Source: a bacterium (lineage in GTDB: Bacteria; Patescibacteriota; Minisyncoccia; Ryanbacterales; GWA2-47-10b). Taken from it: a stretch of DNA of 37,080 bases. Positions 1,119 through 22,600 of this stretch are shown here, one piece after another; the first letter of the stretch is position 1; each line of letters opens with the position of its first letter. Location of the stretch: positions 1 through 37,080 of the forward strand of contig JAQBTR010000008.1 in the NCBI GenBank assembly GCA_027624915.1, given 5' to 3'. Below the pieces are notes generated by a model. That model was not told where the DNA came from. It did no database searches and saw only the letters and a list, made by a program, of their open reading frames with translations. A program made the position numbers and the translations under genes.

Positions 1119-1548
1119 ATGTGTCAAAGAATTTCTCAATAGAATGGACATTGATGCGCGAGTTGAAGAAGGAGTAATCGGCGACTCTGTAGCCTTTTTA
1201 ATTAAAACCAACGACGCAGGCCTTCTTATAGGAGAGGATGGCGGTAATTTAAGCGCCCTAAACTACTTGATACGAAAGGTTATCGACAAGCAAGTTGAGG
1301 GTGCATACGGGCAATATTTAATTGATGTAAATGATTATCAACGACGTAGGTATGAAGAGTTAAGAGATAAGGCTCGTATGGGCGCACAGCGGGTACGATA
1401 TTTTAAAAAAGATGTAAGTTTAGAGCCAATGACTGCGTTTGAGAGACGAATTGTTCATATGGCACTACAAGAATACTCAGACATAGAAACAGAGTCAACT
1501 GGAGAGGGGTTAATGAGACGGGTGGTAATAAAACCATCAGGACACTAA
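1075..1548 (+). CDS. jag: Jag/KhpB-like RNA-binding protein (KH plus R3H)
   Basis: 157 aa with an R3H-like C-terminus (FERRIVHMALQEYSDIETESTGEG). It is the conserved yidC-jag neighbour. Confidence 0.82.
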   Translation: MEIANQTNQKEKALECVKEFLNRMDIDARVEEGVIGDSVAFLIKTNDAGLLIGEDGGNLSALNYLIRKVIDKQVEGAYGQYLIDVNDYQRRRYEELRDKARMGAQRVRYFKKDVSLEPMTAFERRIVHMALQEYSDIETESTGEGLMRRVVIKPSGH

Positions 1549-1578
1549 AAAAATGACCGTGTAGGCGGTTATTTTTTT
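1547..1578. terminator. bidirectional hairpin terminator between the convergent jag and TolB-like genes
   Basis: AAAAAAATGACCG-tgtagg-CGGTTATTTTTTT forms a roughly 13-bp stem with one G-U pair, flanked by an A-run and a T-run. It overlaps both stop codons. Confidence 0.45.
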
Positions 1579-2818
1579 AATTTTCTACTTCCTCTGACGA
1601 TTCTTCAATAGCTTCTTCGTCATGGAAGAGTCTATAGCTCCACAAAGAAGAATCATCTTTGTTTATAAAGATAATATAGTTTTCGTCTGGAGTGAGAAGA
1701 AGGTCTGTCATATCAAAACCACCATTCTCAAGAAGAAGCTCAGCAGAACCGGATATAAGATCGATTCGCCACAATTCATCGTCAAACTCTACCGTTCCTT
1801 TCCACCAAGCATCTGGCAATGGTTCTCGAGAAAGGTTTTTTGGTACTGCACAGTAGATGTTATTTTTAGTGCGCATAGAGAACACACATTTTTCGGGAAG
1901 TGTTGCAAATGTTAATGTTGTTCGCACACCACTTTCCGTATTAAATACGCTTGTTTTTATATCTTGGCCACGACTATCTGTTTCTGATGATATATATTTT
2001 GTTCCATTGGGCGACCACACAACATCAAAGCCGTACTTACCAGAAGTGAGAACAGATGGGTTTCTGCCTGTTCGCGACATTGTTTCCAAGATAGTTGGAG
2101 CAAAACCAGATGTTTTTGTTTTTAGTGATATTAAGGAGTCTCCAGCCCAGGCCACTTCATAATCAGGAATAGGCGTTGAAAAAATTGTTGTGCCACCTGA
2201 ACCATCTGTGTTTGAAATATTTAATGAGTATGACGTTCCTGTTTTTGACAATGAAGCGAGGCGAGTCCCATCTGGAGAAAACGCTCGACTCAGGTGTTCC
2301 CCAGCATATACATCAGTTTCTATAGTTGTTGTTCCGGTCGGCTTAACCCAAAAATCTCTTTGAATGTCGTTGTTTAATGTTGTGATTGCAGCGGTATCGC
2401 CAGTACTCGTCCAACTAGCCCTTACAACGTTGCGTACAGTTATATTTGAGATACGAGCCTCTCCTGTTTGTCCATGAAAAGCGGACTCATAGATATGTCC
2501 CACCCCACGCCTAAAATATCTTACACGATCACCGTCGGGACTAATACCGACACCAATTGTTGGTTCTTTAGACAACTGAACGAGCCGTGCAGCCTCCTCG
2601 TCAGAGACAGGAAACCTCTCAAGAGAATAGTCATCATTTGGTATGGGGCTATTCCCAACAAATTGCAACGAGCCACTACCACCACTAGCAAATGGGTTTA
2701 AAGTAAAATCGCTCTCACTCCCTCTATCGCGGAAGGCAAAGTATAAAATCCCACCCACTATCAAGAGAAGGATAAGGCCTAGTATAAGCATGAATTTTGT
2801 CTGATTCTTTTCGTTCAC
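1577..2818 (-). CDS. membrane-anchored TolB-like beta-propeller (PD40/WD40-like repeat) protein; last gene of the T4SS-like operon
   Basis: N-terminal TM anchor followed by repeated SPDG/DGT motifs (FSPDGTRLASLSKTGTSYSL, SPDGDRVRYF, VWSPNGTKYIS) typical of TolB/PD40 propellers. Confidence 0.6.
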   Translation of the reverse strand: MNEKNQTKFMLILGLILLLIVGGILYFAFRDRGSESDFTLNPFASGGSGSLQFVGNSPIPNDDYSLERFPVSDEEAARLVQLSKEPTIGVGISPDGDRVRYFRRGVGHIYESAFHGQTGEARISNITVRNVVRASWTSTGDTAAITTLNNDIQRDFWVKPTGTTTIETDVYAGEHLSRAFSPDGTRLASLSKTGTSYSLNISNTDGSGGTTIFSTPIPDYEVAWAGDSLISLKTKTSGFAPTILETMSRTGRNPSVLTSGKYGFDVVWSPNGTKYISSETDSRGQDIKTSVFNTESGVRTTLTFATLPEKCVFSMRTKNNIYCAVPKNLSREPLPDAWWKGTVEFDDELWRIDLISGSAELLLENGGFDMTDLLLTPDENYIIFINKDDSSLWSYRLFHDEEAIEESSEEVEN

Positions 2819-2827
2819 AAATTTATT

Positions 2828-3505
2828 TTAATTTTTATAGCATCTTATATCGTTAGCAGTCTGGCATCCAGTTTGATCGGCATCCCCATCACAGCAACGA
2901 AGACCCAATTTTAGAACACAGGGTTTACAGGTAAAACCACTCCTACAAACTTGTGTGCTCGGGTCACATGGGAGTCCACCAAATACAGCCAAGCTACCTC
3001 TACAAGCAAAAACATTTGTATTTATCTCTACACACTTTGGAAAAAGCGGGTTTGTGCAGTCTATATCGTTAGTACAACCTCCGCTTGGTATAGTTGACCC
3101 ACCACCGGGTGGGGCCGTACCTATTGATACGGGAGCGATTTGGGGAATAGCGAGCTCTAGCTTTATTAACTCTGGGTTTATTGTTTCTAAAATAAGCACA
3201 GAAAAAACAGCAATCATGAGCCCCGCCAATGCTGACGTAATAGTACCCTTTGCTCGTGAGACTCGGTCAGAGCCACCGGCTGTCATATATTCAATCCCTC
3301 CATATACAAACATAACGAGAGCTGCGATCGCTGCAACTGAGAGCATAAAAGGAAAAAGAAACTCTACATATTGGATAAATCCACCATCAATCGGAATTTC
3401 GCTACCCCCACCAGGGATTGGTGCTGCTAATTTATAACTTGTCTCACCAAACACTACAGAGGGTTGTGTAAGGAAAAGAATGATTGTAAAAATATATTTT
3501 TTCAT
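2828..3505 (-). CDS. VirB2/TrbC-like pilin-type protein with a cysteine-rich C-terminal extension
   Basis: Signal peptide (MKKYIFTIILFLTQPSVVFG) followed by two hydrophobic helices separated by a short charged loop (GGSDRVSRAKG), the architecture of a T4SS pilin. The last roughly 80 aa contain 14 Cys. Confidence 0.45.
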   Translation of the reverse strand: MKKYIFTIILFLTQPSVVFGETSYKLAAPIPGGGSEIPIDGGFIQYVEFLFPFMLSVAAIAALVMFVYGGIEYMTAGGSDRVSRAKGTITSALAGLMIAVFSVLILETINPELIKLELAIPQIAPVSIGTAPPGGGSTIPSGGCTNDIDCTNPLFPKCVEINTNVFACRGSLAVFGGLPCDPSTQVCRSGFTCKPCVLKLGLRCCDGDADQTGCQTANDIRCYKN

Positions 3506-3508
3506 AAT

Positions 3509-4693
3509 CTAGAGTTCTAGTACGGTAATAATCGCTCCATTACCTCCACGCTGGAGTATATTTGATCTATTGCTGTACTGTAAGAAAATATCTTGTCTTC
3601 CTGACGAACCCTCTTCGGTGGAAAAACGAAAAATACGATTCTTTTTATCTCTATTATCAATTCGGTTTCTATTTATTCTCCACTCATAATCAATATTACT
3701 AAGGTCTACAAATGGCAAAAAGAATGGCTCTGCTTGAATTGCAACAGTATCTCCGCTTATAAGTTGAGCATTTTGTAGTTCACGCCACGTTATGAGCCCA
3801 TAGAGAGAATCTAATTCATAAAAATGCATTTCTGGGAGATGTGATAAAACAACAATCTGTTCTTCGTGCGAAACACGTCGTAATTGGTCTCTTACCCGCA
3901 CTGTCACCTTGTACTCGGAGTTTTGTACGGTTGTTATTTTTGCCTTGAATGTATTTTTCCCGACCCCCGAGACTTCTGGACTTTTGCTAAATTGTCCATC
4001 ATTGATACTCCATTCATATATGAGAGCGTTAGGGCTGATGCGCGCGTTGCCTATTTGGACCTCTGGAACTACCGCAAAATTTATTTCTGATCCCGGGGGA
4101 AGAAGTGCTTTTCCACGGTACCAGACAGGAGTTTTTGAATCAGAGAACCAAGTCATATGGGCGCGTGCGGGGTAGATGTCTTTTGATATCTCCTTTGTGA
4201 CAGATTTGTCTGGGGAGATTGCAACAAGTCTCAAAGATTCCAGCGTTCCTATAGGGCCGAGTGTTAATGAATAGGTGGCACTACCGACACCGGACAATAC
4301 ACTCTTACCGTTATGATACCAAGTATAGTCTATAAGCCTTTTGTCCACCGAGTCTGTATGAGCACTGATAGTAATTGTTTTTCCAGGAGAAAGATTCTTA
4401 GAGTCGACGTTCATTTGCAAATCTCCCATGACTCTGTTTAGAGGGTCTGTTGTGACAGCCTGTGTTGGGTATCGAAATAAATCAAGAACTGAATAGGGCG
4501 CATCGACTGGTAGTCCAAGTCGCTCAAGAAATTCTACCCGAATTGCCTCAACCTCCTCGGGTGTATATTCTATTGGAGTTGATGTTGCTGTTGGTACGGT
4601 TGTTGTCGCCGTGTTTTGAGCATATACAAAAGAAAATGATCCAAAGAGTATTGCCAGGTTAAAGAGTAGAAGTGTGCGATTCATTGTTCCCAT
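3509..4693 (-). CDS. secreted hypothetical protein (beta-rich, Ig-like repeats likely)
   Basis: Signal peptide (MNRTLLLFNLAILFGSFSFVYA) followed by a Thr-rich linker. Tightly packed inside the T4SS-like operon. Confidence 0.6.
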   Translation of the reverse strand: MGTMNRTLLLFNLAILFGSFSFVYAQNTATTTVPTATSTPIEYTPEEVEAIRVEFLERLGLPVDAPYSVLDLFRYPTQAVTTDPLNRVMGDLQMNVDSKNLSPGKTITISAHTDSVDKRLIDYTWYHNGKSVLSGVGSATYSLTLGPIGTLESLRLVAISPDKSVTKEISKDIYPARAHMTWFSDSKTPVWYRGKALLPPGSEINFAVVPEVQIGNARISPNALIYEWSINDGQFSKSPEVSGVGKNTFKAKITTVQNSEYKVTVRVRDQLRRVSHEEQIVVLSHLPEMHFYELDSLYGLITWRELQNAQLISGDTVAIQAEPFFLPFVDLSNIDYEWRINRNRIDNRDKKNRIFRFSTEEGSSGRQDIFLQYSNRSNILQRGGNGAIITVLEL

Positions 4694-4697
4694 TTTA

Positions 4698-5174
4698 TCA
4701 TTTTTTATTGTTAGTTGGTACGTGCGACTTAATCCGATCTCGTATTATAAGCGTAATAATATAGCCACTAATTCCAGGAACCAATGGAACCATATCAAGA
4801 ATTGCCGAAGTCCCCGCCCATTTTAACTCTCCGGTTTTTATTGAAAATGGATTACGATCTTTTCCTATGAGCCATAGATAAACAACTGTCCATCCTACGG
4901 TTGCAATCGATGCATTTATAATCAAGGCTAGCCAGAACAATATTCCAGCTGTGAAGAATCCTACTACGAAGGTTACAATATATTGTGGCAAATCAAAAAA
5001 AATAAAAATTGCCGCGGCAAAAATACCTGCTCCAGTAAGAGGAATGGAGTTTGATGAATCTGTATTAGCAACAGAGGTTTTTTTAGATTTTTTTTGGTCC
5101 CTTCTTCTTTCTCTAAGGAGGTCAGCAGAATATGCCGTTTCTTGATCTATTTGTGCTTGTGTGGTTTCTTCCAT
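4698..5174 (-). CDS. small polytopic membrane protein (about 3 TM), T4SS-like operon member
   Basis: Three hydrophobic segments; the stop is 3 nt upstream of the VirB4 start in the same operon. Confidence 0.55.
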   Translation of the reverse strand: MEETTQAQIDQETAYSADLLRERRRDQKKSKKTSVANTDSSNSIPLTGAGIFAAAIFIFFDLPQYIVTFVVGFFTAGILFWLALIINASIATVGWTVVYLWLIGKDRNPFSIKTGELKWAGTSAILDMVPLVPGISGYIITLIIRDRIKSHVPTNNKK

Positions 5175-5176
5175 AA

Positions 5177-6994
5177 TTAATTACCTCCGATTGCTATCTC
5201 ATCCTTAGCCTGTTTAATAGCCATAAGTTCTGCAGGGTCTGATGTAATAATTTGATGTTCTGTGTATGAAGCCTGAATTTTAATTGCTATATGCTTGAGT
5301 CCTGCAAAGAAGATTCCCTCACCTACATCGGACTCTAAGAGCAAGAATTTTTCTTCGTCGGTTAGATTAAACACTTCTTGTACCGAGTTAATAGATGCAG
5401 GAGACTGCTTTAAGAGCATTTGAATAGATGAGTTTGTTACAATCGGTTTTCCATAAGGAGAACTCATAAAGTCTGTTACATCCTGCGTAATTGTTGCAAG
5501 TCCCAAATAATATTTACGTGCGCGCTTAGCAATCCCATAGAGGAAGGACGCGCCATCGGGAGACTTCATAATGATCCACGCCTCGTCCACTACCAAGAGT
5601 CGCTTTTTTAGGGTTCGTCGAACAGCACTCCAAATATAGTTAATAATGAGATACATAGCTATTGGTCGAAGTTCTTCCTCCATATCTCTAATCGAGAAGA
5701 CGGCCAAACGTACATTGATATTTACGTTGGTTGGCCGATTAATAAACCCCGCCCATGTTCCTTCTGTATATTTTTTAATACGCATAGCGAGAGACTCTCC
5801 ACCTTCCATGTTTGCAAGAACGAGAGCGAAGTCCGACATGGTAGGAGAACTTATTTGAGAAAAGTCGGACTCTGGTGTTATATCTTTTGAGTTATATGTT
5901 TCTGTAATTGCTCGGTCCATCACGGAGTCCTCTTCTGGCGTAAGTCCACCCATCATAAGGCGGAACAAACCAACAAGGCCAATAGTGTGAGACCTCAACA
6001 CATCTGCGGCAGACTCATCTTCGCGGGGTATAGGGACATCAAACGGATTAATATGGTGTTTTGATGTAAGTGAAATATTAAAGTATCTTCCACCAACAGA
6101 TTCAGCCAAGTACTCGTATTCGCGCTCTGGGTCTATAACAAGAACATCTGTGTCGAACATCAAGGAGCGCAAGATTTCTAACTTTGCTGTGTATGATTTA
6201 CCAGAACCAGACTTTGCAAACATAATTGAGTTATAGTTTTCAAAGCCAAACCGATCAAAGAGAACGAGTGAATTATTATGTCGGTTGATTCCATACAAGA
6301 TTCCTTTATTGGATGTGAGGTCAAATGACACAAATGGAAAGGCAGATGATGCAGGGGATGTATTAAAGTAGTTATGAACTTTGATCTGGTCATCACCAAA
6401 AGGAAATACAGAGTTAATACCCTCTTTCTGCTGGAATAGAGCCGGCTTTGTATATACAAGTCGAGCCTCAAGCATGGAGCGAATCTCTCCTTCGTTGCGG
6501 TTTAGCTCTTCGAGGGTATCAGCATAAAGTGTTATATATATACCAAAAGAGAAAAGTTTTTCTTGTGCCTGGGAGAGCTTATCACGCAATGCTTCTAGGT
6601 CTTGGTATGCAGTATCGAGCATAGGGTCACGAACAAGCCCCTTTTCTTCACGAACAGTAATTTGTGACTGAACTTGAGCCACCTTTTTTCTGAGCGTCTT
6701 GAGAACAGCAGCTGTATCAACTGGATGAAAGAAGATAGCAATATCGAATACTTTGTCTAGATTGATAACTCCTGAGAACCAGTTTGTTGCTAAAAATCTT
6801 GGGTAGGCAAAAACAAAGATTGTTCGAGCCAATTTTTCACCAAGTCTAACGTAGTTAGAATTAATCTCAAAAGCAGATGGCGCAATAACATCCTTTAGGC
6901 CAAGGAGCCCAGATTGATATATTTCTTGAGGAAAAACTGGCAGAACACTTTCCTGCTGATTTTGCTTCTTTTTAAACATGTCTAACATTCCCAT
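5177..6994 (-). CDS. virB4: VirB4/TrbE/CagE-family type IV secretion ATPase
   Basis: Walker A (FAKSGSGKSYTAK), Walker B (LLVVDEAWIIMK), and an N-terminal CagE/TrbE/VirB4 motif (LKDVIAPSAFEINSNYVRLGEKLARTIFVFAYPRF). Confidence 0.9.
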   Translation of the reverse strand: MGMLDMFKKKQNQQESVLPVFPQEIYQSGLLGLKDVIAPSAFEINSNYVRLGEKLARTIFVFAYPRFLATNWFSGVINLDKVFDIAIFFHPVDTAAVLKTLRKKVAQVQSQITVREEKGLVRDPMLDTAYQDLEALRDKLSQAQEKLFSFGIYITLYADTLEELNRNEGEIRSMLEARLVYTKPALFQQKEGINSVFPFGDDQIKVHNYFNTSPASSAFPFVSFDLTSNKGILYGINRHNNSLVLFDRFGFENYNSIMFAKSGSGKSYTAKLEILRSLMFDTDVLVIDPEREYEYLAESVGGRYFNISLTSKHHINPFDVPIPREDESAADVLRSHTIGLVGLFRLMMGGLTPEEDSVMDRAITETYNSKDITPESDFSQISSPTMSDFALVLANMEGGESLAMRIKKYTEGTWAGFINRPTNVNINVRLAVFSIRDMEEELRPIAMYLIINYIWSAVRRTLKKRLLVVDEAWIIMKSPDGASFLYGIAKRARKYYLGLATITQDVTDFMSSPYGKPIVTNSSIQMLLKQSPASINSVQEVFNLTDEEKFLLLESDVGEGIFFAGLKHIAIKIQASYTEHQIITSDPAELMAIKQAKDEIAIGGN

Positions 6995-6995
6995 A

Positions 6996-7700
6996 CTATT
7001 GATTGTCCCCTAGTTGAGATCCTTCAGTAATTTGTGGTGCCTTACCTTTGCCAGAGCTCTCTGGGTTGTACAGACTATAATAAAGTTCAATTAACTCCTC
7101 GGTATTTAGAGGGACGGCGCGTACCCCAGTTCTCACAAGTCCACTTATGACGGTGTCCACCCTCTGATAGAGTTGTGTTTTATACTCTTCAAATTTAACC
7201 TGGTCTATTGTTCCGTCGGTGTTTTTGTTTCCTCCAAATATAGTTTTTACTGTTTGCATAATACCTTGTTGTTGAGCACCAGACAGAGCGTTTGGTGTGA
7301 ATGAGACTACTATATAAAAGGTTTTTGTAACGATATTTCCTGTCTCAACAAACTCTTTTACGAACGTTATATATTCTGTTATCTGGATTCTCAAAAGCTC
7401 ATTTACTTCCTCTTTTTTTCTTGTACGCAGAATTTCTAAATAAGGCTCAATATTAAGTCTTCGTGATTGTATCGAAAACTCAACAGAAAAATCGAGCGAG
7501 TTTAGAAAGCTTTGGTACTGTAGGATGATAGCGTCTTGTTCGTCGGGAGATTTGAGCGCGAAGTTGAGGGAGGAAGCCATAAGAACACCACGTAATGAAC
7601 CGTCCTTGAGTACAACAACACCATCCCGTATTTCTTCTATTGGGACAATCTCTTGAGATGCCTTTGCATTTTGTGCTAATTGTGATTCGCTTATAGCCAT
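6996..7700 (-). CDS. VirB4 N-terminal-domain-like protein, separated from virB4 by 1 nt and in another frame (split gene or frameshift)
   Basis: IRDGVVVLKDGSLRGVLMASSLNFALKSPDEQ resembles the extreme N-terminal TrbE/VirB4 motif. The TAG stop, one nt, then the ATG of virB4 follow directly. 234 + 605 aa equals a full-length VirB4. Confidence 0.55.
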   Translation of the reverse strand: MAISESQLAQNAKASQEIVPIEEIRDGVVVLKDGSLRGVLMASSLNFALKSPDEQDAIILQYQSFLNSLDFSVEFSIQSRRLNIEPYLEILRTRKKEEVNELLRIQITEYITFVKEFVETGNIVTKTFYIVVSFTPNALSGAQQQGIMQTVKTIFGGNKNTDGTIDQVKFEEYKTQLYQRVDTVISGLVRTGVRAVPLNTEELIELYYSLYNPESSGKGKAPQITEGSQLGDNQ

Positions 7701-7833
7701 TTACCCTCCTAAATTTTTAAGAACTATTAAAAGCACGGCATCATAATTCTTTATTTGCCGGACTGTCCTTATCTTATTGTTTATATTTGTTTTCATATTA
7801 TTCGCTTTATTCTTAAAAGTTTTGGCGGGTGAA

Positions 7834-8244
7834 CTATCTCTTCAATTTTTCATTAATATCCAAAGACCAAGATAGGTCTTGAAGTTTGCTTTTTGAAAAT
7901 TTTGGCACCATTGTGTTTGGCCCGCCTTGTATTTGTTGCTGTTCTCTTTGGATTTCTTTTTCCGAATGCTTCCAGATAAACAATCTTGAGTGCGATACAT
8001 GATTTGTCATGTTATTAAGCACGGTGATTGCTGGCTGCCCGTTTATTTTGAGGAAGGCGACAGATGCGAAGAAGCCCGCACCAACTGCCGCAAGAATCCA
8101 AGAGATTATACGTGGAAGCGGAAGGACAAGCACCGTTACAACAAATCCAGCACCACCAAGAACATAAATCAATTGCTTGACCGTAAGAGGACCTAAGATT
8201 TTGTCCTCTATATCTATAAATTGTGGTACTTGAAACTGTTGCAT
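7834..8244 (-). CDS. PrgI/VirB3-like small two-TM protein
   Basis: The N-terminus (QVPQFIDIEDKILGPLTVKQLIYVLGG) followed by two TM helices matches PrgI-family proteins that precede VirB4 in Gram-positive and CPR T4SS loci. Confidence 0.55.
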   Translation of the reverse strand: MQQFQVPQFIDIEDKILGPLTVKQLIYVLGGAGFVVTVLVLPLPRIISWILAAVGAGFFASVAFLKINGQPAITVLNNMTNHVSHSRLFIWKHSEKEIQREQQQIQGGPNTMVPKFSKSKLQDLSWSLDINEKLKR

Positions 8245-8245
8245 A

Positions 8246-8938
8246 TTATTCTACTTCTTCCCTATATGGGTCTGAATTTTTTGATTGAGTTGCCGTCTTT
8301 GTTCCAGGCTTGTTTGGGGTCGATAGGGTCGGAGGCTTTTGTACGACTGGCGCTTGTTCTTGTACGACCGGTTCTTTCGATTCAAATTTTGGGGCACTTG
8401 GAATTGTAGATCCACTACCACCTTTCTCTGGAAAAATTATTGATGGAATAGCTGTTTTTTCTACGCTTGGTTTTGGAGCCGGTTTTATTATTGGTGGCTG
8501 GAGAGGTCTTGTCTCTTTTATTTCTACGGGTTGTTGAGGAGGTGTTGGGACAGCTTTTTCTCTTACATGCGTTGCAAACGATTTTGGATGCTGAGGTATA
8601 AGTTCCGTTTCAGGCTCTTCATTTGGGGCGGTTTTCAAATTTTCTTGGATTTCTTTAAAGACTTCACTATTTACATCGTCTACAACTGCTTTTGCTTGAG
8701 CCTGAGTGATACCTAGGCTTTCAGTAAGTCGTCCTGCAAAGTTTTGCGGAGATGTAAGGCCGAGCATTACATATCCAGTTTCTTCTGCAAGCACTCCAAC
8801 CTTGTCGAGCATAAGACCGTGTCGCTTACCAATATTTAGCATCTTGTCGGTTGTGGCAGAGGCAAAAAGAGCATCACGAACCCGACGAGGCAATCGTTCA
8901 TAGCGTGATAAGACTTCTTCTTGTGAAAACGTTTTCAT
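8246..8938 (-). CDS. hypothetical protein with a globular N-terminal domain and a Pro/Gln-rich low-complexity tail
   Basis: About 100 aa structured N-terminus followed by PTPPQQPVEIKETRPLQPPIIKPAPKP...; no TM segment. Operon member. Confidence 0.55.
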   Translation of the reverse strand: MKTFSQEEVLSRYERLPRRVRDALFASATTDKMLNIGKRHGLMLDKVGVLAEETGYVMLGLTSPQNFAGRLTESLGITQAQAKAVVDDVNSEVFKEIQENLKTAPNEEPETELIPQHPKSFATHVREKAVPTPPQQPVEIKETRPLQPPIIKPAPKPSVEKTAIPSIIFPEKGGSGSTIPSAPKFESKEPVVQEQAPVVQKPPTLSTPNKPGTKTATQSKNSDPYREEVE

Positions 8939-8956
8939 TTTAGTTTTTTATTTTGC

Positions 8957-11344
8957 CTAAGTTTCTTTATCCGCCTTATCTCCCATCTCTCTTTTTAGTC
9001 TTTCTACTTCTTTCTCTATATCACTCTTTCCTTTACTTATTGTTGTGTCTAACTCACCCGGGGTTTCTAGGAGTATATTACCCGTGTATAGGCGAGGATT
9101 ATCAAGCTTTTTAATCTCTTCTTGGGTTTTTGTTTGACGCTCACCCTGGGCTGCTATTTGTCTATCAACGCTTTGGATACGATCATCGATACGATCCATA
9201 TCTCCTTGCAATCTTTCTCTTTCAGCTCTGTCGGGAGCCCTGTTTCTGCGCACCTCGATTATTTGTTTTTGGGTTTCTAGTTGTGACCTTTTTGTACCGA
9301 GGTCGCCCACTTTTTCGCTGGTGTTTTTCAGTGTGTTTGCGTGCGCGGTACGGATTCCTGGGTTTGCTGCGAATTGATTAGCAAGGTCTGCATTTCCATA
9401 CTCTTCTCTAATTTTTTTCTCAAGAGATGTGCCGTCGCTAGATTTGATACCGAATCGGCTTTTAATTGCACCCAACATTTTGCTTGTTTGGTCTATATCC
9501 TTGCGTGATGTCCTGAATTCATTAAAGCCTTTTTCATTTTTCATGAAATAGTCCTGTACGTGTGTGCTGGACACGCCTTCGTTTCTATAAATTTCATGTC
9601 GGTCTTCCTTGGACATTGCGTGCATTAGTTCTCCAAGTCGTCGGTCGTAATCAGCATTTCCGGTCGGGGCCTTATCTACCTTTCCATATTCTGGGTGCTC
9701 TAGTTTCATCGCCTCGTGGACACCACCACCAGCCGCTGCAAATGCCCGAAGGTCTCCATCACTAACCCCCTGTTTTTTGAGGTTTTGTGAAAGTCGTCCA
9801 ACGCCTTCAGGTCCCATAACATTTTTAAGCTCTTTTGCGACAGACGCACGTTCCTTGCCGTCTTTCATCTGGTCGAAGACTTCTTTTTGTGCAGAGGCAT
9901 TCATGGTTGCCATCATGCGGGCCTGTGTACGAGGATCTCTACCCTTGGCCTTTTTGGCTTCTGCCTTGGCACGCTCCTTGTCAGCATCCCTACCTTTGGC
10001 AGCGAGAGTTCTAAGCCCTCCACCAATTCCAAGTCCATTTATGAGAGCCTTGCCAACTCGGCTCTGTGGTAGCACGGCGAGACCACCACGGGCCGCAGTA
10101 CCCGCCGCCCTTTGGGCTGTACGACGGACAGGTCTGTAAAGTGCACCTCTCACCTTTCCACCTATATTTCCAGCAATCTTGAGTGCACCACTAGCTCCAT
10201 ATGCCCCCATTGATTTTGCAGCAATAAGAGATGCCATAAGTAAAATACCCAAGAATATAAAACCAAGTACGAGTCCAGCTTTTGCGGTGAGTTGTGAGGC
10301 AGCCTCACCCTGGAGAGCGATCGTAAGGTCGGTAGATAAAGACGCTTTATTGACAAGAGATTCTATTCCACCCCCCGCGATAATTTTAAACACGAGATAT
10401 AAAAAGAACATATACGCTGGATAAAAGAAGGATTGTTCAAAAAGATTTTTAAACCATTTTTGTGCCATGCCGCTTGTTGTTGGGAGTACATAAAAGAGAA
10501 ATGCAAAGGGCGCCAAAATAAATAAAATCCATATATACACAATTCGTATTACGAGAAGTATTGCCCCTGCCCCGATGACAAATGTAGCAATAAGAATCAA
10601 TATGATTCCCATGATATAAGCAATAATTGCGTTCGAAAGGCGCTCATAAGTACTAAAGGGTTTGTTTACCGTTGCTTCATTTGGTGCAATAATATTTTGC
10701 GGCTTGAAGCCACTCACAAATGTTGTTGCGATATCACGACCATCTGCTACACCATCGTTATCAAGATCTGCGTTTGGATTACCCATAGCCGAATAAAACT
10801 GATTACCAAGAGCATTTGACGTATCAACAATGATGCCTGCAATCGCTAAGCTAAAGTTAACTAAAAGTGCCGAAATAATAAGCTTAAAAAGAAGTGATTT
10901 CATTCCGTAAGATTCAATCCCAAGAATGGTGGCTATCGCGATAATCAAAAGAACAAAGATATAGACAATATTTACAACATCTCGTGAAATCATCCAACCG
11001 GCATTTACAATTGGCTGGTCATAAAAGGCCTCGTTTTGGATGCTAAGTGCGATATCAAAAAGTGCGGAAGCAAGTGTAATTAAATAACTAAAGATATCAA
11101 GAGCATAAGAAAGCCCATAAGCTAATCCAAGGACTAGACAGCCAGGGATGCTGATATCCGGAGGGATAACGCTATTAACACAATACACAGGGGAGCCCTT
11201 ACCGGCGCTTTGTGCGCGACTGGCTGCCCCTATTACTGAGCCACCCGCTGTTTGTGCATGCACACTCAAAACTGGAGCAAATACAAGCATTGCGATTACA
11301 AAGAATGCGAGAATGGGTACATATTTTTTAGCGAAGGAGTGCAT
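8957..11344 (-). CDS. VirB6/TrbL-like polytopic membrane protein with a roughly 350-aa charged or coiled-coil C-terminal tail
   Basis: Signal peptide plus 6-8 TM helices in the first roughly 420 aa, then a hydrophilic K/E/R-rich tail (KERAKAEAKKAKGRD...). Adjacent to the VirB3/VirB4-like genes. Confidence 0.5.
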   Translation of the reverse strand: MHSFAKKYVPILAFFVIAMLVFAPVLSVHAQTAGGSVIGAASRAQSAGKGSPVYCVNSVIPPDISIPGCLVLGLAYGLSYALDIFSYLITLASALFDIALSIQNEAFYDQPIVNAGWMISRDVVNIVYIFVLLIIAIATILGIESYGMKSLLFKLIISALLVNFSLAIAGIIVDTSNALGNQFYSAMGNPNADLDNDGVADGRDIATTFVSGFKPQNIIAPNEATVNKPFSTYERLSNAIIAYIMGIILILIATFVIGAGAILLVIRIVYIWILFILAPFAFLFYVLPTTSGMAQKWFKNLFEQSFFYPAYMFFLYLVFKIIAGGGIESLVNKASLSTDLTIALQGEAASQLTAKAGLVLGFIFLGILLMASLIAAKSMGAYGASGALKIAGNIGGKVRGALYRPVRRTAQRAAGTAARGGLAVLPQSRVGKALINGLGIGGGLRTLAAKGRDADKERAKAEAKKAKGRDPRTQARMMATMNASAQKEVFDQMKDGKERASVAKELKNVMGPEGVGRLSQNLKKQGVSDGDLRAFAAAGGGVHEAMKLEHPEYGKVDKAPTGNADYDRRLGELMHAMSKEDRHEIYRNEGVSSTHVQDYFMKNEKGFNEFRTSRKDIDQTSKMLGAIKSRFGIKSSDGTSLEKKIREEYGNADLANQFAANPGIRTAHANTLKNTSEKVGDLGTKRSQLETQKQIIEVRRNRAPDRAERERLQGDMDRIDDRIQSVDRQIAAQGERQTKTQEEIKKLDNPRLYTGNILLETPGELDTTISKGKSDIEKEVERLKREMGDKADKET

Positions 11345-11349
11345 ACGTA

Positions 11350-12348
11350 TTAAAAGAGACTTGTTGACTCTGCATCCAAAATGCTCTTGAGTCCTTCTGA
11401 GATAGCAAGATTAATAAGCGCCTGTATTACCTCACTCATTTCGTCAGCAAGATTAAGTCCCATAAAATCGAGGTCAAGGGAGTTTGCCACTCGGTCTCCG
11501 ATAGCCTTTGCTGGTGTTTTAATTCTAAACTTGCGACATCCAACTGCATTTTCTTCGAGACAGTCAACGACTGGCAAATATCCGCCACCTGATGCAGATG
11601 CATTTCGGAAAACAGATTCGGACTCAAAGCGTCGCATGCGGTTTTCTTCGAGTGTCATAAGATAAAAATCGAGTCGATTATTATTGGATTGGCGCGTTTT
11701 TACAAAGGCATTCCACCTGCCATTTGAAAAATCGTCATAGTAATCCTCAATATTGTCTACAACATCAGTTATGGTACAACGAGCTCGGTTTTGATAACTC
11801 TGAGTTCCATAGAGACCAAGGTCGAGTACAATTTCTGGTAAAAAATCACTACAGAAGTAATTTGGATCTCCCGCAACTTGAAGCCCAAGCTCTTCAATAA
11901 AAACACCCGTCGCCTGATCTCCAAATTCTTTAAAAAATCGTTCAGGGTCTTGCAAAAAGAAAGGCTCGGCATCATCAGCAAAACCACTCTGAATCCAAGT
12001 AATAAGTTCGTTCTTAAGCGTATTTATAAAAACATTTGCGAGCATTTTTGCAATTCCATCGTAGGAGAAGATAGAGCCCGCCGCGCCCTTAATCAGCTGG
12101 AGAATGCCACTGACACTAAAAATATTTGCAACTTGAAACTCTTTATCGAGCTGGTGACCTGCGTACTGAAGTCCAGGAACGGAAACGGCAGTAATAATCG
12201 TAGGTATAGCCCCGGTAAGTCCTACATCCCACGTAGGGACAGTGGCTCGCGCCTCTTTTTGTGGTAGAAACACAAAGAGTTCAAGAGAGATAATGCTCGT
12301 AAGCAAAATGGTTGTCACAAATCGTTTCATAAAAGAGGAGCCAATCAT
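11350..12348 (-). CDS. secreted hypothetical protein (T4SS-like operon)
   Basis: N-terminal signal or TM segment (FVTTILLTSIISLELFVFLP). ATGA start-stop overlap with the upstream gene. Confidence 0.55.
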   Translation of the reverse strand: MIGSSFMKRFVTTILLTSIISLELFVFLPQKEARATVPTWDVGLTGAIPTIITAVSVPGLQYAGHQLDKEFQVANIFSVSGILQLIKGAAGSIFSYDGIAKMLANVFINTLKNELITWIQSGFADDAEPFFLQDPERFFKEFGDQATGVFIEELGLQVAGDPNYFCSDFLPEIVLDLGLYGTQSYQNRARCTITDVVDNIEDYYDDFSNGRWNAFVKTRQSNNNRLDFYLMTLEENRMRRFESESVFRNASASGGGYLPVVDCLEENAVGCRKFRIKTPAKAIGDRVANSLDLDFMGLNLADEMSEVIQALINLAISEGLKSILDAESTSLF

Positions 12349-13346
12349 ATTTTGTTTACATAATCTTGTTGAAATTGATACCCAGGTTCTTTTGTGCCAA
12401 ACACTATTTTTTTATCATCAATAAGTTTTTTTATTTCAGTAAAGATTTTTTTACTATTTTCGATTTCACTTTGGTAATGGTTCATGCCACTCGTACCAAG
12501 TATAGGGTCACGGCCATATGCCATAATCGATCGAAGCGCGAGGCTAGTGTTTGCAAGAGAGTTAAGAAGAGCTACATGAATATGGGCGGTTTCGACTGGC
12601 GTCTCAACACCAGACAAATCCCTAACGGCATCTAGATATCGTAATTGATATTTTTCTAGTTTTTCTATATTGTCGACAAGATCTTGCTCGGTAACGCCCT
12701 CTCCTTTTTCGGTGATCAAAAATGCAAGTTTATATAAAACCGTAAATTCACTTTCATACTTTTCATCAGTTAAATTATCGGGGAAACTTTTTTCCGTAAC
12801 TATCGCAACATCATTTATATACTCTTTTTCACTTCGATTATTATTTAACACAACATGTTCAATTTTGTATGGATTGTAAAGCGAGTCAACCTTTTTAATC
12901 TCTTCAATTCCCCCAGTTATTAAGGCTTTGTTGAGTCGTTCATCAAAGTCAATCTCGTATTCTTCGCCTGGGACTACATGTGCTTGAACATACTGTGCAA
13001 AATCTTGAAGGATTACGCGAGTCGGAGACAGGCTATCAATAATTGTTGGGTTAACGAGATCATTTGTTGATTGACTGCTCACAGATTCATCGCCATCAAG
13101 AATTCCGTCCCCATCAGAATCTGGATTATTTGGATCGGTGTTTCTAAGTAGCTCTTCCCAGTCTTCGAGACCATCTGCATCAGAGTCTATTCCGCGAGTT
13201 CCGGCAACTGTATCAAAAGCTGTTTTACCTTGGGGAGCAGGCCTTGTTTTTGAGTTACGAAAAGAAGAAGCAAAATATAAAAATCCAGCAGCAATAACTA
13301 AGCTCAGCATGATAAGGGTTAGCTTTTTTGATGGTAGTGCATTCAA
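12345..13346 (-). CDS. membrane-anchored protein with thrombospondin type-3-like Ca-binding repeats; first gene of the operon
   Basis: TM anchor followed by DSDADGLEDWEE...DPNNPDSDGDGILDGDE (DxDxDG repeats). Confidence 0.6.
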   Translation of the reverse strand: MNALPSKKLTLIMLSLVIAAGFLYFASSFRNSKTRPAPQGKTAFDTVAGTRGIDSDADGLEDWEELLRNTDPNNPDSDGDGILDGDESVSSQSTNDLVNPTIIDSLSPTRVILQDFAQYVQAHVVPGEEYEIDFDERLNKALITGGIEEIKKVDSLYNPYKIEHVVLNNNRSEKEYINDVAIVTEKSFPDNLTDEKYESEFTVLYKLAFLITEKGEGVTEQDLVDNIEKLEKYQLRYLDAVRDLSGVETPVETAHIHVALLNSLANTSLALRSIMAYGRDPILGTSGMNHYQSEIENSKKIFTEIKKLIDDKKIVFGTKEPGYQFQQDYVNKI

Positions 13347-13515
13347 AAGAAAGTAATACGTATAGTTCTTTCCTATCGCGTTTTACTAGATATATTGTAT
13401 CATTTTTATTCTTCTTCTAATACGATTTTTTGTTTGGGGATAAAGGATATTTTGATTCCGAGTGCCTGAAATACTGTTTTTTATTAAGAATTGATTTTTG
13501 GTGTATAATGATTGT

Positions 13516-14754
13516 ATGAAAAACAGCAAAAAACCGTTTTTTGTACTCATTTTGCTCGTTTCTCTTTTGTGGGCGCTTTGGTGGCTTTTTAGTGTTTTAT
13601 ATAGCACACCGGGAGACATATCAAATGGACAATTTGAAGAAAACCCTTATATTACAACAGAATCGGACGTTTCTTTTGGAGAACGAAAACCGGCTGTTGC
13701 ACCCCCTTCTAACCTTGGTTTTGAGGAGCGAGCCATACAATCTGTAGAGAATGAAACATTTAGGCAATACTATGATTTTAAGGAAGAATTAGCCGTGGTT
13801 GCCAAAACCCTAGATAGATCAAGGACTCCACTCGAGGTTCAAGATTCTCTTGCCAAGGACCCAGACACATTACCAGCAAGTAATTTTCCAGATTACTATC
13901 TCGATGGGAGTCAAGACGTGAGAAGACTGCTTTTAATTGCAGATGCCTTCAAGAAAAAACCACCTTTACCCGCTGGCTTGAGTCTAGATGACCCAGATAT
14001 ACTAGAAAAGCTGTTTACGTCACTTCAGTCGTCAGGGTACATAGATAACGAAGCGATTCCACTGGAAACAGAGGGGGATATTTTTCGTTTAAATCAACAG
14101 GCTTTTGAATTGTTGGATGACCTTGGTATGTATAATTCCTCTTTTGCTCATGAGGGGGAAAGAGAACAGGCTAGACGCGCTGTATACGAAACCTCAATTA
14201 ATGCTTGGCGTGGAGAAGAGATTTTTCGTGGCGGTGGAAATTTTTTAAACTATAGGGAAAGCTCCGGAGGCGCCTCTTTAGAACATGCTGTTGGGCTCAT
14301 AAAAAAAATATCATCAATCTTTTTACCACATACGGCTCAAGCTCAATTAAGTGATATTGTAGACAATTTCGTGACCATTCCTGATTGTTGGAAATCTGTA
14401 GGGCCAGACGAGCCACTAGCTCGTGCTGAAAGAGGTCTAGAGGGAGGTAGTAACCTATATGCACCATGCTGTAATTGTGGTATTTACTATGGTGGTGGCT
14501 ATGATATTGAGTTTGTATATGATTGCGGTACGTATGATAACCTAGATTTTCCTATTAATGAGGACTGTAATATTATTCCTCTAGGATGTATAAATCTGAT
14601 TTGTTTTGGTGAGGAAGCGAATGCCATATTTGATGGTCCCCCAGGATATTTAGTTCCAGCAATAGCTGGTTATGGGGGAGGGTTTAATGTTGACTGGTCA
14701 TTTAAGTGTGGCTGTGACAGTGATATTAAGCTTGGGCCTGAAGCCAGTCCCTAA
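13516..14754 (+). CDS. membrane-anchored hypothetical protein with a cysteine-rich C-terminal domain
   Basis: TM helix (FFVLILLVSLLWALWWLF) and a C-terminal region with about 12 Cys (PCCNCGIYYGGG...CGCDSD). Start chosen at the ATG at 13516; the track ORF begins at a TTG at 13498. Confidence 0.6.
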   Translation: MKNSKKPFFVLILLVSLLWALWWLFSVLYSTPGDISNGQFEENPYITTESDVSFGERKPAVAPPSNLGFEERAIQSVENETFRQYYDFKEELAVVAKTLDRSRTPLEVQDSLAKDPDTLPASNFPDYYLDGSQDVRRLLLIADAFKKKPPLPAGLSLDDPDILEKLFTSLQSSGYIDNEAIPLETEGDIFRLNQQAFELLDDLGMYNSSFAHEGEREQARRAVYETSINAWRGEEIFRGGGNFLNYRESSGGASLEHAVGLIKKISSIFLPHTAQAQLSDIVDNFVTIPDCWKSVGPDEPLARAERGLEGGSNLYAPCCNCGIYYGGGYDIEFVYDCGTYDNLDFPINEDCNIIPLGCINLICFGEEANAIFDGPPGYLVPAIAGYGGGFNVDWSFKCGCDSDIKLGPEASP

Positions 14755-17478: not shown

Positions 17479-17525
17479 TGAAACGAGACCTCTTTTTGTG
17501 CTATTATCGTGAGATGGGATGTCCC

Positions 17526-21342: not shown

Positions 21343-21343
21343 A

Positions 21344-21371
21344 CTCCCGACAAGCGGGAGTCTTTTATTTT
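21344..21371 (+). terminator. rho-independent terminator
   Basis: CTCCCG-acaa-GCGGGAG followed by TCTTTTATTTT. Confidence 0.8.
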
Positions 21372-21381
21372 AGGGTGGGTT

Positions 21382-21573: not shown

Positions 21574-21582
21574 GTTTTTAAT

Positions 21583-22152: not shown

Positions 22153-22276
22153 CCCGTTAGTGATAGGTCGTCTGGGACGACCGTATTTGTTTAGTTGGTA
22201 ATTATTGGTTCTAAGTTTTGTTATCAATCCTGCTTTGTGATTTTATATACTAGTCACTAACAGGATCCATGAAAAT

Positions 22277-22305: not shown

Positions 22306-22333
22306 CCAAATCCCTGTGGATAGCCTTAAGGTG

Positions 22334-22362: not shown

Positions 22363-22368
22363 TTTTGT

Positions 22369-22585: not shown

Positions 22586-22600
22586 AATGTCCGAATAACG

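What the first reader, a model, noticed from the sequence alone, without database searches (positions are those of the whole stretch)
1577..13346. 11-gene type IV secretion-like operon on one strand, without VirD4, VirB11 or a relaxase in the window
An 11.7 kb co-directional, near-gapless operon encodes VirB4, a PrgI/VirB3-like protein, a VirB6-like protein, a VirB2-like pilin, three secreted or Cys-rich or Ca-binding surface proteins, a TolB-like propeller and a Pro-rich protein. The coupling ATPase, relaxase and VirB11 that define a conjugative DNA-transfer system are absent here. In a reduced genome, this points to a surface appendage or effector-delivery machine, for example for host attachment, rather than a plasmid-transfer system. 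Several members (3509-4693, 8246-8938, 11350-12348, 12345-13346) have no recognisable family and may be lineage-specific structural components.
Basis: partly seen in the sequence, partly recalled or inferred. Interest (0 to 1): 0.7.

Follow-up and report, generated by a model that had tools for sequence, protein, structure and literature searches.

The report
Patescibacteria-type type IV secretion operon
This is a real 11-gene operon for the pilus-bearing, relaxase-less type IV secretion system that ultra-small host-dependent Patescibacteria carry next to their replication origin; the kind of system was already described in 2023-2025, so the finding is correct but not new.

Summary
Window 1577-13346 (minus strand) carries 11 co-directional ORFs separated by -4 to +18 nt, apart from one 133-nt gap. 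Profile searches confirm a VirB4 ATPase of the CD1110 monoderm type, a PrgI/VirB3-like protein, a TrbL/VirB6-like protein and a PF18895 VirB2-like pilin. No T4CP, relaxase or VirB11 lies in the window or in 10 kb beyond its near edge. The organism is a Paceibacteria-class Patescibacterium. The operon sits between rnpA-yidC-jag and ksgA-uvrD, about 2 kb from dnaA. The same block in the same place occurs in dozens of related species, so it is vertically inherited chromosome, not a mobile element. This matches the published "Patescibacteria-clade" T4SS (Wang 2023; Quinonero-Coronel 2025). Its function is still unknown, but it is essential in one cultured Saccharibacterium. Modest additions here: the "orphan" genes are conserved accessory components across Paceibacteria; the pilin has a hypervariable, often Cys-rich C-terminal extension; and a cytoplasmic Pro-rich protein ends in a position-specific DPYRE tail. 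The kind of system is already known, so interest is low to moderate.

The parts
12345..13346 (-). g11: membrane-anchored surface protein with Ca-binding TSP3-type repeats and a C-terminal domain of about 230 aa with unknown fold
   Evidence: One N-terminal TM-like segment. PF18884 TSP3_bac scores E 5e-4. The family profile hits the Ca-binding repeat of the Bap surface protein 7c7u at E 1e-6. Syntenic orthologues occur in 20 loci.
11350..12348 (-). g10: secreted or anchored, mostly helical protein with conserved Cys; a large family with no known relative, always directly upstream of virB6
8957..11344 (-). g09: extended VirB6/TrbL-like polytopic membrane protein with a hydrophilic, charged C-terminal half of about 400 aa
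   Evidence: PF04610 TrbL scores 32.6 bits against a cut-off of 25.9. Eight TM-like segments lie within residues 9-376. Orthologues of 517-1292 aa occur in 52 loci.
8246..8938 (-). g08: cytoplasmic protein with a conserved N-terminal domain of about 100 aa, a Pro-rich linker and an invariant C-terminal DPYRE tail
   Evidence: No TM segment or signal peptide; 11.7% Pro. No family or PDB hit. All 32 C-terminal DP[YF]R[ED] tails in the window plus 81 loci sit in the ORF directly upstream of prgI.
7834..8244 (-). g07: PrgI / VirB3-like small membrane protein
   Evidence: PF12666 PrgI scores 33.2 bits against a cut-off of 27. Two TM-like segments. Orthologues occur in 69 loci.
6996..7700 (-). g06: TrsD/TraD-like protein, the VirB4 N-terminal domain as a separate polypeptide
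   Evidence: NF041427 TrsD scores E 1.4e-8. It matches the N-terminal parts of the VirB4 models NF045975 and NF045971. Residues 19-168 of a full-length clostridial VirB4 align here, while residues 197-757 align to g05. PF26593 TraC-like is on record for this product. It is a separate ORF in all relatives.
5177..6994 (-). g05: VirB4 ATPase (P-loop part), Patescibacteria clade of the monoderm MPF-FATA class
   Evidence: NF045971 CD1110 family scores 361.7 bits against a cut-off of 325. PF19044 P-loop_TraG scores E 2e-23. Walker A AKSGSGKS and Walker B LLVVDEAW are visible in the translation. It is 58-88% identical to Paceibacteria proteins.
4698..5174 (-). g04: small membrane protein (3 TM-like segments) with a charged N-terminus; no family, conserved by position
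   Evidence: TM-like segments. No meaningful Pfam hit: weak scattered single-member matches only. An ORF of 102-261 aa with the same hydrophobic pattern and an invariant Pro sits between virB4 and the Ig-like gene in at least 12 relatives.
3509..4693 (-). g03: secreted protein with Ig-like/PKD repeats
   Evidence: Signal-peptide-like N-terminus. PF00801 PKD scores 25.3 against a cut-off of 23.5. The family profile weakly hits the Ig-like Hoc protein. Orthologues occur in 53 loci.
2828..3505 (-). g02: VirB2-like pilin core (signal peptide plus two TM helices, ending in a TINPxL motif), followed by a Gly/Pro linker and a C-terminal domain of about 85 aa with 12 Cys
   Evidence: PF18895 scores 26.7 against a cut-off of 26.6. 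Of 25 orthologues, 22 hit PF18895 and 4 hit TrbC/VirB2. In the alignment the core is conserved, while the C-terminal extension is unalignable and often Cys-rich; orthologues range from 129 to 557 aa.
1577..2818 (-). g01: membrane-anchored extracytoplasmic beta-propeller (TolB-like blades)
   Evidence: One N-terminal TM segment. TIGR02800 TolB propeller scores E 8e-5. The family profile hits TolB structures at E 1e-10. Orthologues occur in 53 loci, and the gene is duplicated together with the pilin in L026.
1546..1579 (.). Bidirectional terminator-like hairpin between jag and the last operon gene
   Evidence: A 15-pair stem flanked by A and T runs. This is a consensus match only.
13347..13497 (-). 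AT-rich upstream intergenic region, the presumed promoter, with an extended -10-like TGATACAAT at 13402-13394
   Evidence: Read directly from the sequence. Inference only.

Best explanation
**What it is (shown).** The operon is the chromosomal, vertically inherited type IV secretion system characteristic of Patescibacteria, here in its Paceibacteria arrangement. It encodes a monoderm-type inner-membrane platform and a VirB2-like pilin.
- The platform consists of VirB6-like, PrgI/VirB3-like and VirB4 proteins. VirB4 is made as two polypeptides, TrsD-like plus the P-loop part.
- Six conserved accessory proteins accompany them. Four are extracytoplasmic: a beta-propeller, an Ig/PKD protein, a Ca-binding TSP3 protein and a helical protein of a large orphan family. 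One is a small membrane protein. One is a cytoplasmic Pro-rich protein with a DPYRE tail.
- There is no coupling protein, relaxase, integrase or oriT-type context within 47 kb.

**How it probably works (inferred).** VirB4/TrsD, docked on PrgI and VirB6, extracts pilin from the membrane and polymerises a conjugative-type pilus. The variable Cys-rich C-terminal domain of each subunit would be displayed on the pilus surface. The propeller, Ig-like, Ca-binding and g10 proteins would form the wall-spanning, adhesive part. The appendage contacts, and possibly penetrates, the host cell on which the epibiont lives, and mediates exchange of macromolecules other than conjugative DNA.

**What I cannot decide.** The direction of transport is open. 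I rate protein export and import of host material as about equally likely, and adhesion alone as less likely.
For: **Core families.** The core families pass the curated cut-offs. The VirB4 split is shown by alignment to a full-length clostridial VirB4 and is conserved in relatives.

**Chromosomal, not mobile.**
- The block UvrD-KsgA-[11 genes]-Jag-YidC recurs in dozens of Paceibacteria species whose VirB4 is 58-85% identical.
- The operon lies about 2 kb from dnaA/dnaN.
- Its G+C (0.38-0.46) matches the flanks.
- VirB4 is more conserved (median 66%) than the neighbouring Jag (49%), UvrD (44%), KsgA (39%) and YidC (36%). The surface parts are at 27-37%. This is the pattern expected of an important machine with fast-evolving exposed parts.

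**Variable pilin.** The pilin C-terminal extension is hypervariable and often Cys-rich. The pilin and propeller genes are co-duplicated in L026.

**No transfer genes nearby.** No T4CP or relaxase was found.

**Literature.**
- The homologous cluster SEML1_0006-0019 is essential for epibiotic growth of Southlakia epibionticum. It has PF18895 pilins and lacks a recognisable coupling protein and relaxase (PMC10633639; supplements).
- A survey of 3,035 genomes describes the same clade, the TrsD, PrgI, VirB6 and VirB2 genes near virB4, the dnaA/rnpA/ksgA neighbourhood and the lack of relaxases (PMC12102498).
- Tubular structures that may be T4SS pili were seen at a parasite-host interface (bioRxiv 10.64898/2026.06.21.733656).
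Against: - No experiment bears on this organism or on any Paceibacteria T4SS.
- The pilin assignment for this particular protein sits right at the Pfam threshold. The family profile does not hit any solved VirB2 pilin by sequence.
- No VirB8-like or VirB1-like component was recognised in the operon. The nearest cell-wall hydrolase (M23/LysM, 17478-18599) lies 4 kb away on the other strand and is rarely syntenic.
- A T4CP could be encoded on another contig of the same genome, which could not be searched.
- The roles given to the six accessory proteins rest on topology, domain hints and synteny only.
Confidence: 0.75

Rival explanations
1. It is an ordinary conjugative DNA-transfer system whose coupling protein, relaxase and oriT are encoded elsewhere in the genome.
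For: VirB4 belongs to the conjugative MPF-FATA lineage (PMC12102498). The core gene order VirB6-PrgI-x-VirB4 is the same as in a clostridial conjugation module. T4CP homologues are common in Patescibacteria genomes away from virB4.
Against: The position beside the origin is fixed across many species, and there is no integrase or G+C shift. Relaxases occur in only 103 of 3,035 Patescibacteria genomes. In Southlakia the T4CP homologue is dispensable while the T4SS is essential. A selfish transfer module would not be more conserved than the neighbouring housekeeping genes.
Confidence: 0.07
2. It is a DNA-uptake (competence) machine in the manner of Helicobacter ComB or the archaeal Ced system. 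Those systems also work without VirD4, VirB11 and a relaxase.
For: The component set (VirB2, VirB3, VirB4, VirB6, no T4CP) resembles ComB. There are weak partial hits to the CedB and CedD models. Patescibacteria lack nucleotide synthesis, and this role has been suggested for the T4SS (PMC11665869).
Against: In Southlakia, competence depends on type IV pili plus ComEC. A comEC deletion abolishes transformation but not viability, whereas the T4SS is essential. The ComB signature parts VirB8, VirB9 and VirB10 are absent, and the Ced hits cover only the P-loop region.
Confidence: 0.12
3. It is a decaying remnant of an ancient integrated conjugative element and has no present function.
For: The transfer genes are missing. 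VirB4 is split into two ORFs one base apart in different frames.
Against: All 11 ORFs are intact. The split is conserved as two genes in all relatives, and TrsD is known as a separate protein in pGO1-type systems. VirB4 is 58-88% identical across the class. The homologous system is essential in Southlakia.
Confidence: 0.02

Closest known systems
Patescibacteria-clade T4SS, as surveyed by Quinonero-Coronel et al. 2025 (PMC12102498) and shown to be essential in Ca. Southlakia epibionticum ML1, SEML1_0006-0019 (Wang et al. 2023, PMC10633639)
   Same: A VirB4 of about 600 aa with a separate TrsD-like gene, PrgI, extended VirB6, PF18895 VirB2-like pilin, and no relaxase or T4CP in the cluster. It lies in the chromosome beside dnaA, rnpA and ksgA, and has the core order VirB6-PrgI-TrsD-VirB4.
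   Different: Southlakia has two VirB6-like genes, an NTF2-like (VirB8-like) protein, lysozyme-like hydrolases and a divergent array of six short pilins. This operon has one VirB6 and no recognisable hydrolase or VirB8-like gene. It has a single pilin with a Cys-rich C-terminal extension, plus a propeller, an Ig/PKD protein, a TSP3 protein, the g10 protein and a DPYRE-tail protein. The main text of the survey does not mention TolB-like or PKD-type components.
MPF-FATA conjugation modules of the CTn2/CD1110 type, for example Clostridium botulinum pCDC3875
   Same: The best-scoring VirB4 model is the CD1110 family, and the score is above its cut-off. The order VirB6-PrgI-(one gene)-VirB4 is shared.
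   Different: The clostridial module has a full-length 797-aa VirB4, an adjacent VirD4 (CD1115), an SLT transglycosylase, an SSB and a MOBP relaxase typing, and it has no pilin. The operon here has none of these transfer parts and does have a pilin.
pGO1/pSK41 Trs system (TrsD)
   Same: The VirB4 N-terminal-like protein is made as a separate polypeptide (NF041427 hit; PMC12102498).
   Different: The score is far below the family cut-off (34.8 against 200 bits). The Trs system is plasmid-borne and conjugative, and the published profile comparison finds no VirB6 homologue in the pGO1 subclass.
T4CP-less T4SSs: Helicobacter ComB (DNA uptake) and Bordetella Ptl (toxin export)
   Same: They work without VirD4 and without a relaxase. 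The review groups such systems together.
   Different: Both are diderm systems with VirB7, VirB9 and VirB10 outer-membrane cores. There is no sequence affinity beyond the shared VirB2/3/4/6 families.

Membership tests
Type IV secretion system (general) | VirB4-family ATPase with intact Walker A and B motifs | tested here: met
   NF045971 scores 361.7 bits against a cut-off of 325, and PF19044 scores E 2e-23. AKSGSGKS and LLVVDEAW are present in the translation.
Monoderm MPF-FATA class | VirB4 groups with Firmicutes, Actinobacteria, Tenericutes and Archaea VirB4 proteins | tested here: met
   The best models are CD1110 (Clostridia) and Mbov_0397 (Mycoplasma), while the proteobacterial VirB4/TrbE models score only E 1e-4 to 1e-7. 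The best plasmid matches are Bacillota and Actinomycetota. No tree was built here; clade placement follows PMC12102498.
Monoderm MPF-FATA class | PrgI/VirB3-like and PrgH/VirB6-like membrane proteins next to virB4 | tested here: met
   PF12666 scores 33.2 against 27, and PF04610 scores 32.6 against 25.9. The order is as in pCDC3875.
Monoderm MPF-FATA class | VirB8-like (NTF2-fold) bitopic protein | tested here: inconclusive
   No sequence or profile hit in any operon protein.
Monoderm MPF-FATA class | VirB1-like cell-wall hydrolase in the cluster | tested here: not met
   No hydrolase domain occurs in the 11 proteins. An M23/LysM peptidase lies 4 kb away on the other strand and is syntenic in only 2 of 81 loci.
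Conjugative (DNA-transfer) T4SS | VirD4/TcpA-type coupling protein | tested here: not met
   None occurs in the window or 10 kb beyond it. tblastn with the CD1115 VirD4 found nothing in the window or the 81 loci. The rest of the genome could not be searched.
Conjugative (DNA-transfer) T4SS | Relaxase and oriT | tested here: not met
   No relaxase family hit occurs in the window or the extended flank. oriT was not tested. Genome-wide absence could not be tested.
Patescibacteria-clade T4SS (PMC12102498) | Separate TrsD-like gene directly upstream of a VirB4 of about 600 aa | tested here: met
   It is conserved in 74 of 81 loci.
Patescibacteria-clade T4SS (PMC12102498) | VirB2-like pilin (PF18895/PF04956) near virB4 in a monoderm | tested here: met
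   PF18895 scores at threshold for this protein and is hit by 22 of 25 orthologues; TrbC is hit by 4 of 25. No sequence link to solved pilins was found.
Patescibacteria-clade T4SS (PMC12102498) | Chromosomal location near dnaA, rnpA and ksgA, and vertical inheritance | tested here: met
ComB-type DNA-uptake T4SS | ComB8, ComB9 and ComB10 (VirB8/9/10) core | tested here: not met
   No such families were detected.

The most novel reading that the evidence does not exclude
The machine works as an import conduit. A VirB4-powered, T4CP-independent pilus pierces the host envelope, and host cytoplasmic macromolecules are drawn through it into the epibiont. These would be RNA in particular, later degraded by the PNPase encoded 12 kb away in this window. 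The cytoplasmic DPYRE-tail protein would act as an adaptor at the VirB4 ring, and the hypervariable pilin domain would set host range.
Probability: 0.25. Interest if true: 0.85.

Novelty: already known. Interest (0 to 1): 0.3.

Why it matters
This T4SS is one of the few machines that nearly all Patescibacteria keep despite extreme genome reduction. It is essential in the one species tested, and its function is described as "completely unknown" (PMC11665869). Working it out would explain how a large share of bacterial diversity feeds on host cells.

This window adds no new kind of system. It does give a clean, complete Paceibacteria example with a defined 11-gene parts list. It also yields three testable leads:
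- a conserved orphan secreted protein family (g10);
- a pilin with a hypervariable displayed domain;
- a DPYRE-tailed cytoplasmic partner.

Tried and rejected
- **Homologue search for g10.** Word-indexed searches returned only 7-10 proteins. The exhaustive representative search was needed to reach the family.
- **Profile-against-PDB searches.** These gave nothing for the pilin, g08 or VirB6. g03 and g11 gave only repeat or Ig-like hints.
- **Cys-rich domains.** I tested whether the Cys-rich domain of the pilin is related to the Cys-rich C-terminus of the divergent neighbour 13498-14754. It is not.
- **Small membrane protein g04.** I tested whether it belongs to a known family. It does not.
- **Regulatory signals.** Rfam found only the four tRNAs, and no RNA element in the 133-nt prgI-trsD gap. 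Promoter and terminator scans were not above shuffled expectation, apart from the terminal hairpin.
- **Mobile-element reading.** I rejected an integrated mobile element (ICE) because of the conserved housekeeping flanks, the absence of an adjacent integrase and the uniform G+C.
- **Failed look-up.** The RnpA protein was not on record.

Full report
**1. The observation**

The window has 11 minus-strand ORFs at exactly the coordinates given: 12345-13346, 11350-12348, 8957-11344, 8246-8938, 7834-8244, 6996-7700, 5177-6994, 4698-5174, 3509-4693, 2828-3505 and 1577-2818. Neighbouring ORFs overlap by 4 nt or are separated by 1-18 nt. The one exception is a 133-nt AT-rich gap between 7834-8244 and 6996-7700.

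A 15-pair hairpin flanked by A and T runs (1546-1579) separates the last gene from the convergent jag gene. The 150 nt upstream of the first gene are AT-rich and contain an extended -10-like TGATACAAT (inference only). Base composition of the operon (G+C 0.38-0.46) does not differ from its flanks.

**2. What the genes are**

The table gives the Pfam and NCBIfam results, with topology from a hydropathy scan.

| Window coordinates | Assignment | Main evidence |
|---|---|---|
| 5177-6994 | VirB4 ATPase | NF045971 "CD1110 family" 361.7 bits (cut-off 325); PF19044 E 2e-23; Walker A AKSGSGKS and Walker B LLVVDEAW |
| 6996-7700 | TrsD/TraD-like protein | NF041427 E 1.4e-8; matches the N-terminal parts of two VirB4 models |
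| 7834-8244 | PrgI/VirB3-like | 33.2 bits (cut-off 27); two TM segments |
| 8957-11344 | TrbL/VirB6-like | 32.6 bits (cut-off 25.9); eight TM-like segments; hydrophilic tail of about 400 aa |
| 2828-3505 | VirB2-like pilin | PF18895 T4SS_pilin 26.7 bits (cut-off 26.6) |
| 1577-2818 | Membrane-anchored beta-propeller | TolB blades; family profile against PDB TolB E 1e-10 |
| 3509-4693 | Secreted Ig/PKD protein | PKD 25.3 bits (cut-off 23.5); weak Hoc-like hit |
| 12345-13346 | Anchored protein with Ca-binding TSP3 repeats | Family profile against Bap 7c7u E 1e-6 |
| 4698-5174 | Small membrane protein, three TM-like segments | No known family |
| 8246-8938 | Cytoplasmic Pro-rich protein | No family or PDB hit |
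| 11350-12348 | Secreted helical protein | No family or PDB hit |

*VirB4 is split.* A full-length clostridial VirB4 aligns with residues 19-168 on 6996-7700 and residues 197-757 on 5177-6994. VirB4 is therefore encoded as two genes, one base apart and in different frames.

*The pilin assignment holds at family level.* The score for this protein is borderline. However, 22 of 25 syntenic orthologues hit PF18895 and 4 hit TrbC/VirB2.

**3. Where it sits and how it is inherited**

VirB4 homologues at 58-88% identity come from Ryan-, Giovannoni-, Kaiser-, Nomura-, Sungi-, Terry- and Campbell-bacteria and from unnamed Paceibacteria MAGs. The organism is therefore a Paceibacteria-class member of the Patescibacteria (CPR).

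The window matches one end of an 85-kb ENA scaffold. Beyond the window start that scaffold carries rnpA (which also lies partly in the window), dnaA, dnaN, a class A PBP, ruvC, yebC, ruvB and a PilB-type ATPase. The operon is thus about 2 kb from the replication origin genes.

I compared the window proteins by tblastn with 81 related loci, one of which is this same contig. The block UvrD-KsgA-[TSP3 - g10 - VirB6 - Pro-rich - PrgI - TrsD - VirB4 - small TM - Ig/PKD - pilin - propeller]-Jag-YidC recurs in the same order wherever the contigs are long enough. Number of loci with a hit, out of 81:

| Component | Loci with a hit |
|---|---|
| VirB4 | 81 |
| TrsD | 74 |
| PrgI | 69 |
| Pilin | 54 |
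| Propeller | 53 |
| Ig/PKD | 53 |
| VirB6 | 52 |
| g10 | 34 |
| Pro-rich | 33 |
| TSP3 | 20 |

Many loci are truncated contigs, so these counts are lower bounds.

Median identities show a strongly constrained motor with fast-evolving exposed parts:
- VirB4 66%.
- Neighbouring housekeeping genes: Jag 49%, UvrD 44%, KsgA 39%, YidC 36%.
- Extracytoplasmic components 27-37%.

This is vertically inherited chromosome, not an integrated element. There is no adjacent integrase, and the only tyrosine recombinase (28573-29463) lies 15 kb away.

**4. The missing transfer genes**

No VirD4/TcpA coupling protein, relaxase or VirB11 family appears in any sizeable ORF of the window. None appears in the extra 10 kb either. 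tblastn with a CD1115-type VirD4 finds nothing in the window or in the 81 loci with their flanks of up to 10 kb.

Two qualifications apply:
- The monoderm clostridial comparator module also shows no VirB11, and from general knowledge monoderm T4SSs lack it, so its absence says nothing.
- T4CP homologues are frequent in Patescibacteria genomes but usually lie far from virB4 (PMC12102498). I could not search the rest of this genome.

**5. Comparison with what is known**

The system is already described.
- Wang et al. 2023 (PMC10633639) found an origin-proximal T4SS cluster in the Saccharibacterium Southlakia epibionticum. It has VirB4, a TrsD-like protein, PrgI, two VirB6-like proteins, an NTF2-like protein, lysozymes and six PF18895 pilins. 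It has no recognisable coupling protein or relaxase, and it is essential for growth on the host.
- Quinonero-Coronel et al. 2025 (PMC12102498) surveyed 3,035 genomes.
  - 2,425 VirB4s form a Patescibacteria clade nested in MPF-FATA.
  - TrsD, PrgI/VirB3, VirB6 and VirB2-like pilins are typically next to virB4.
  - Relaxases are present in only 103 genomes.
  - In Paceibacteria the locus is near dnaA, dnaN, rnpA, rpmH and ksgA.
- A 2025 review lists these systems as the only monoderm T4SSs with potential conjugative-type pili and the first T4SS shown to be essential (PMC12857230).

Every defining feature of that clade was tested here and met. The closest genuinely conjugative relatives are CTn2/CD1110-type modules. 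In C. botulinum pCDC3875 the order VirD4-x-VirB6-PrgI-x-VirB4-x-SLT hydrolase is seen. The present operon keeps the VirB6-PrgI-x-VirB4 core, lacks VirD4 and the hydrolase, and has gained a pilin.

**6. What this analysis adds**

The published text does not mention a propeller or PKD component.

(b) g10 belongs to a very large orphan family, with 5,956 representative clusters at E<=1e-3. It has invariant Cys residues and sits directly upstream of virB6. A 70-sequence AF2 model (pLDDT 69.6, mainly helical with one beta-hairpin) has no convincing structural neighbour. Longer orthologues add carbohydrate-binding or Ig-like domains at the C-terminus. This suggests a surface-exposed, possibly adhesive role. 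A VirB5-like function is a guess only.

(c) The pilin has a conserved core of about 130 aa: a signal peptide, two TM helices and a TINP(D/N)L motif. This is followed by an unalignable, often Cys-rich extension, and orthologues range from 129 to 557 aa in total. Here the extension is a Gly/Pro linker plus a domain of about 85 aa with 12 Cys. If the fold is VirB2-like, this domain would decorate the pilus surface (inference). The pilin and propeller genes are duplicated together in L026.

(d) The Pro-rich protein has no TM segment. It has a conserved N-terminal domain of about 100 aa and an invariant C-terminal DPYRE(P/E)x tail. All 32 such tails found in the window plus the 81 loci (six-frame translation) sit in the ORF immediately upstream of prgI. 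I read the tail as a docking peptide or translocation signal (idea only).

**7. Mechanism**

*Shown.* The component set, the topology, the chromosomal fixation and the absence of transfer genes nearby.

*Inferred.* VirB4/TrsD on a PrgI-VirB6 platform assembles a VirB2-type pilus. The extracytoplasmic accessory proteins build the wall-spanning, adhesive part. The appendage contacts the host cell.

*Direction of transport.* This cannot be decided.
- Effector export is the older suggestion (PMC10633639).
- Nucleic-acid uptake has been proposed because competence is dispensable while the T4SS is essential (PMC11665869).
- A 2026 preprint reports tubular structures, possibly T4SS pili, penetrating the host of a cultured Patescibacterium that takes up host RNA. 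The uptake route remains unresolved. A PNPase gene lies in this window (25419-27623). That fits the proposed RNA-feeding metabolism but proves nothing.

*My estimates.*

| Reading | Probability |
|---|---|
| Non-conjugative host-contact machine | 0.75 |
| ... of which export | about 0.3 |
| ... of which import | about 0.3 |
| ... of which adhesion only | about 0.15 |
| ComB/Ced-like DNA uptake | 0.12 |
| Classical conjugation | 0.07 |
| Remnant without function | 0.02 |

**8. Verdict**

The system is of an already published kind, so the finding is a correct rediscovery. Its residual value lies in the complete Paceibacteria parts list and three testable leads: the g10 family, the variable pilin domain and the DPYRE-tail protein. 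Interest 0.3.

Noticed in passing
window 8246-8938 (minus strand), and the ORF upstream of prgI in L011, L017, L032, L034, L037, L038, L046, L048, L072 and others: A cytoplasmic Pro-rich protein ends in an invariant DPYRE(P/E)x tail. All 32 such C-terminal tails in the window plus 81 loci (six-frame translation) sit at this one operon position. The tail may be a docking or translocation signal.
   Followed up: partly
window 13498-14754 (plus strand): A divergently transcribed secreted protein of 418 aa with an 11-Cys C-terminal region and no family hit. It is syntenic in only 4 of 81 loci and is unrelated to the pilin's Cys-rich domain. It could be a variable surface protein or a substrate.
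   Followed up: partly
window 30000-33000: G+C rises to 0.51-0.56 against about 0.42 elsewhere. The region carries an SPFH/Band-7 protein (30385-31527) and a 490-aa membrane protein (31524-32996). It lies between a XerC/D-like recombinase (28573-29463) and tRNA-Arg (33126). This may be a horizontally acquired island.
   Followed up: no
window 25419-27623 (minus strand): A full-length PNPase lies about 12 kb from the T4SS. A 2026 preprint proposes PNPase as the entry enzyme for host-RNA feeding in Patescibacteria. The proximity may be coincidental.
   Followed up: no
window 1546-1579: A 15-pair hairpin flanked by A and T runs lies between the convergent jag gene and the last operon gene. It looks like a bidirectional terminator.
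   Followed up: no
L026 about 13.3-16 kb; L047; L006, L064 and L081: The pilin-plus-propeller pair is tandemly duplicated in L026. L047 has two pilins, of 145 and 557 aa. The order of the pilin and propeller genes is swapped in Kaiserbacteria-like loci.
   Followed up: no
L083 1-1289 (source scaffold, about 9-10 kb beyond the window start): A PilB-type (MshEN plus T2SSE) type IV pilus ATPase lies about 10 kb from the T4SS operon, on the other side of the origin genes.
   Followed up: no
window 20905-24000: A run of ORFs without family hits (22616-23173, 23170-23655, 23594-23947) lies next to lexA (21583-22227), with slightly raised G+C of 0.46-0.48.
   Followed up: no
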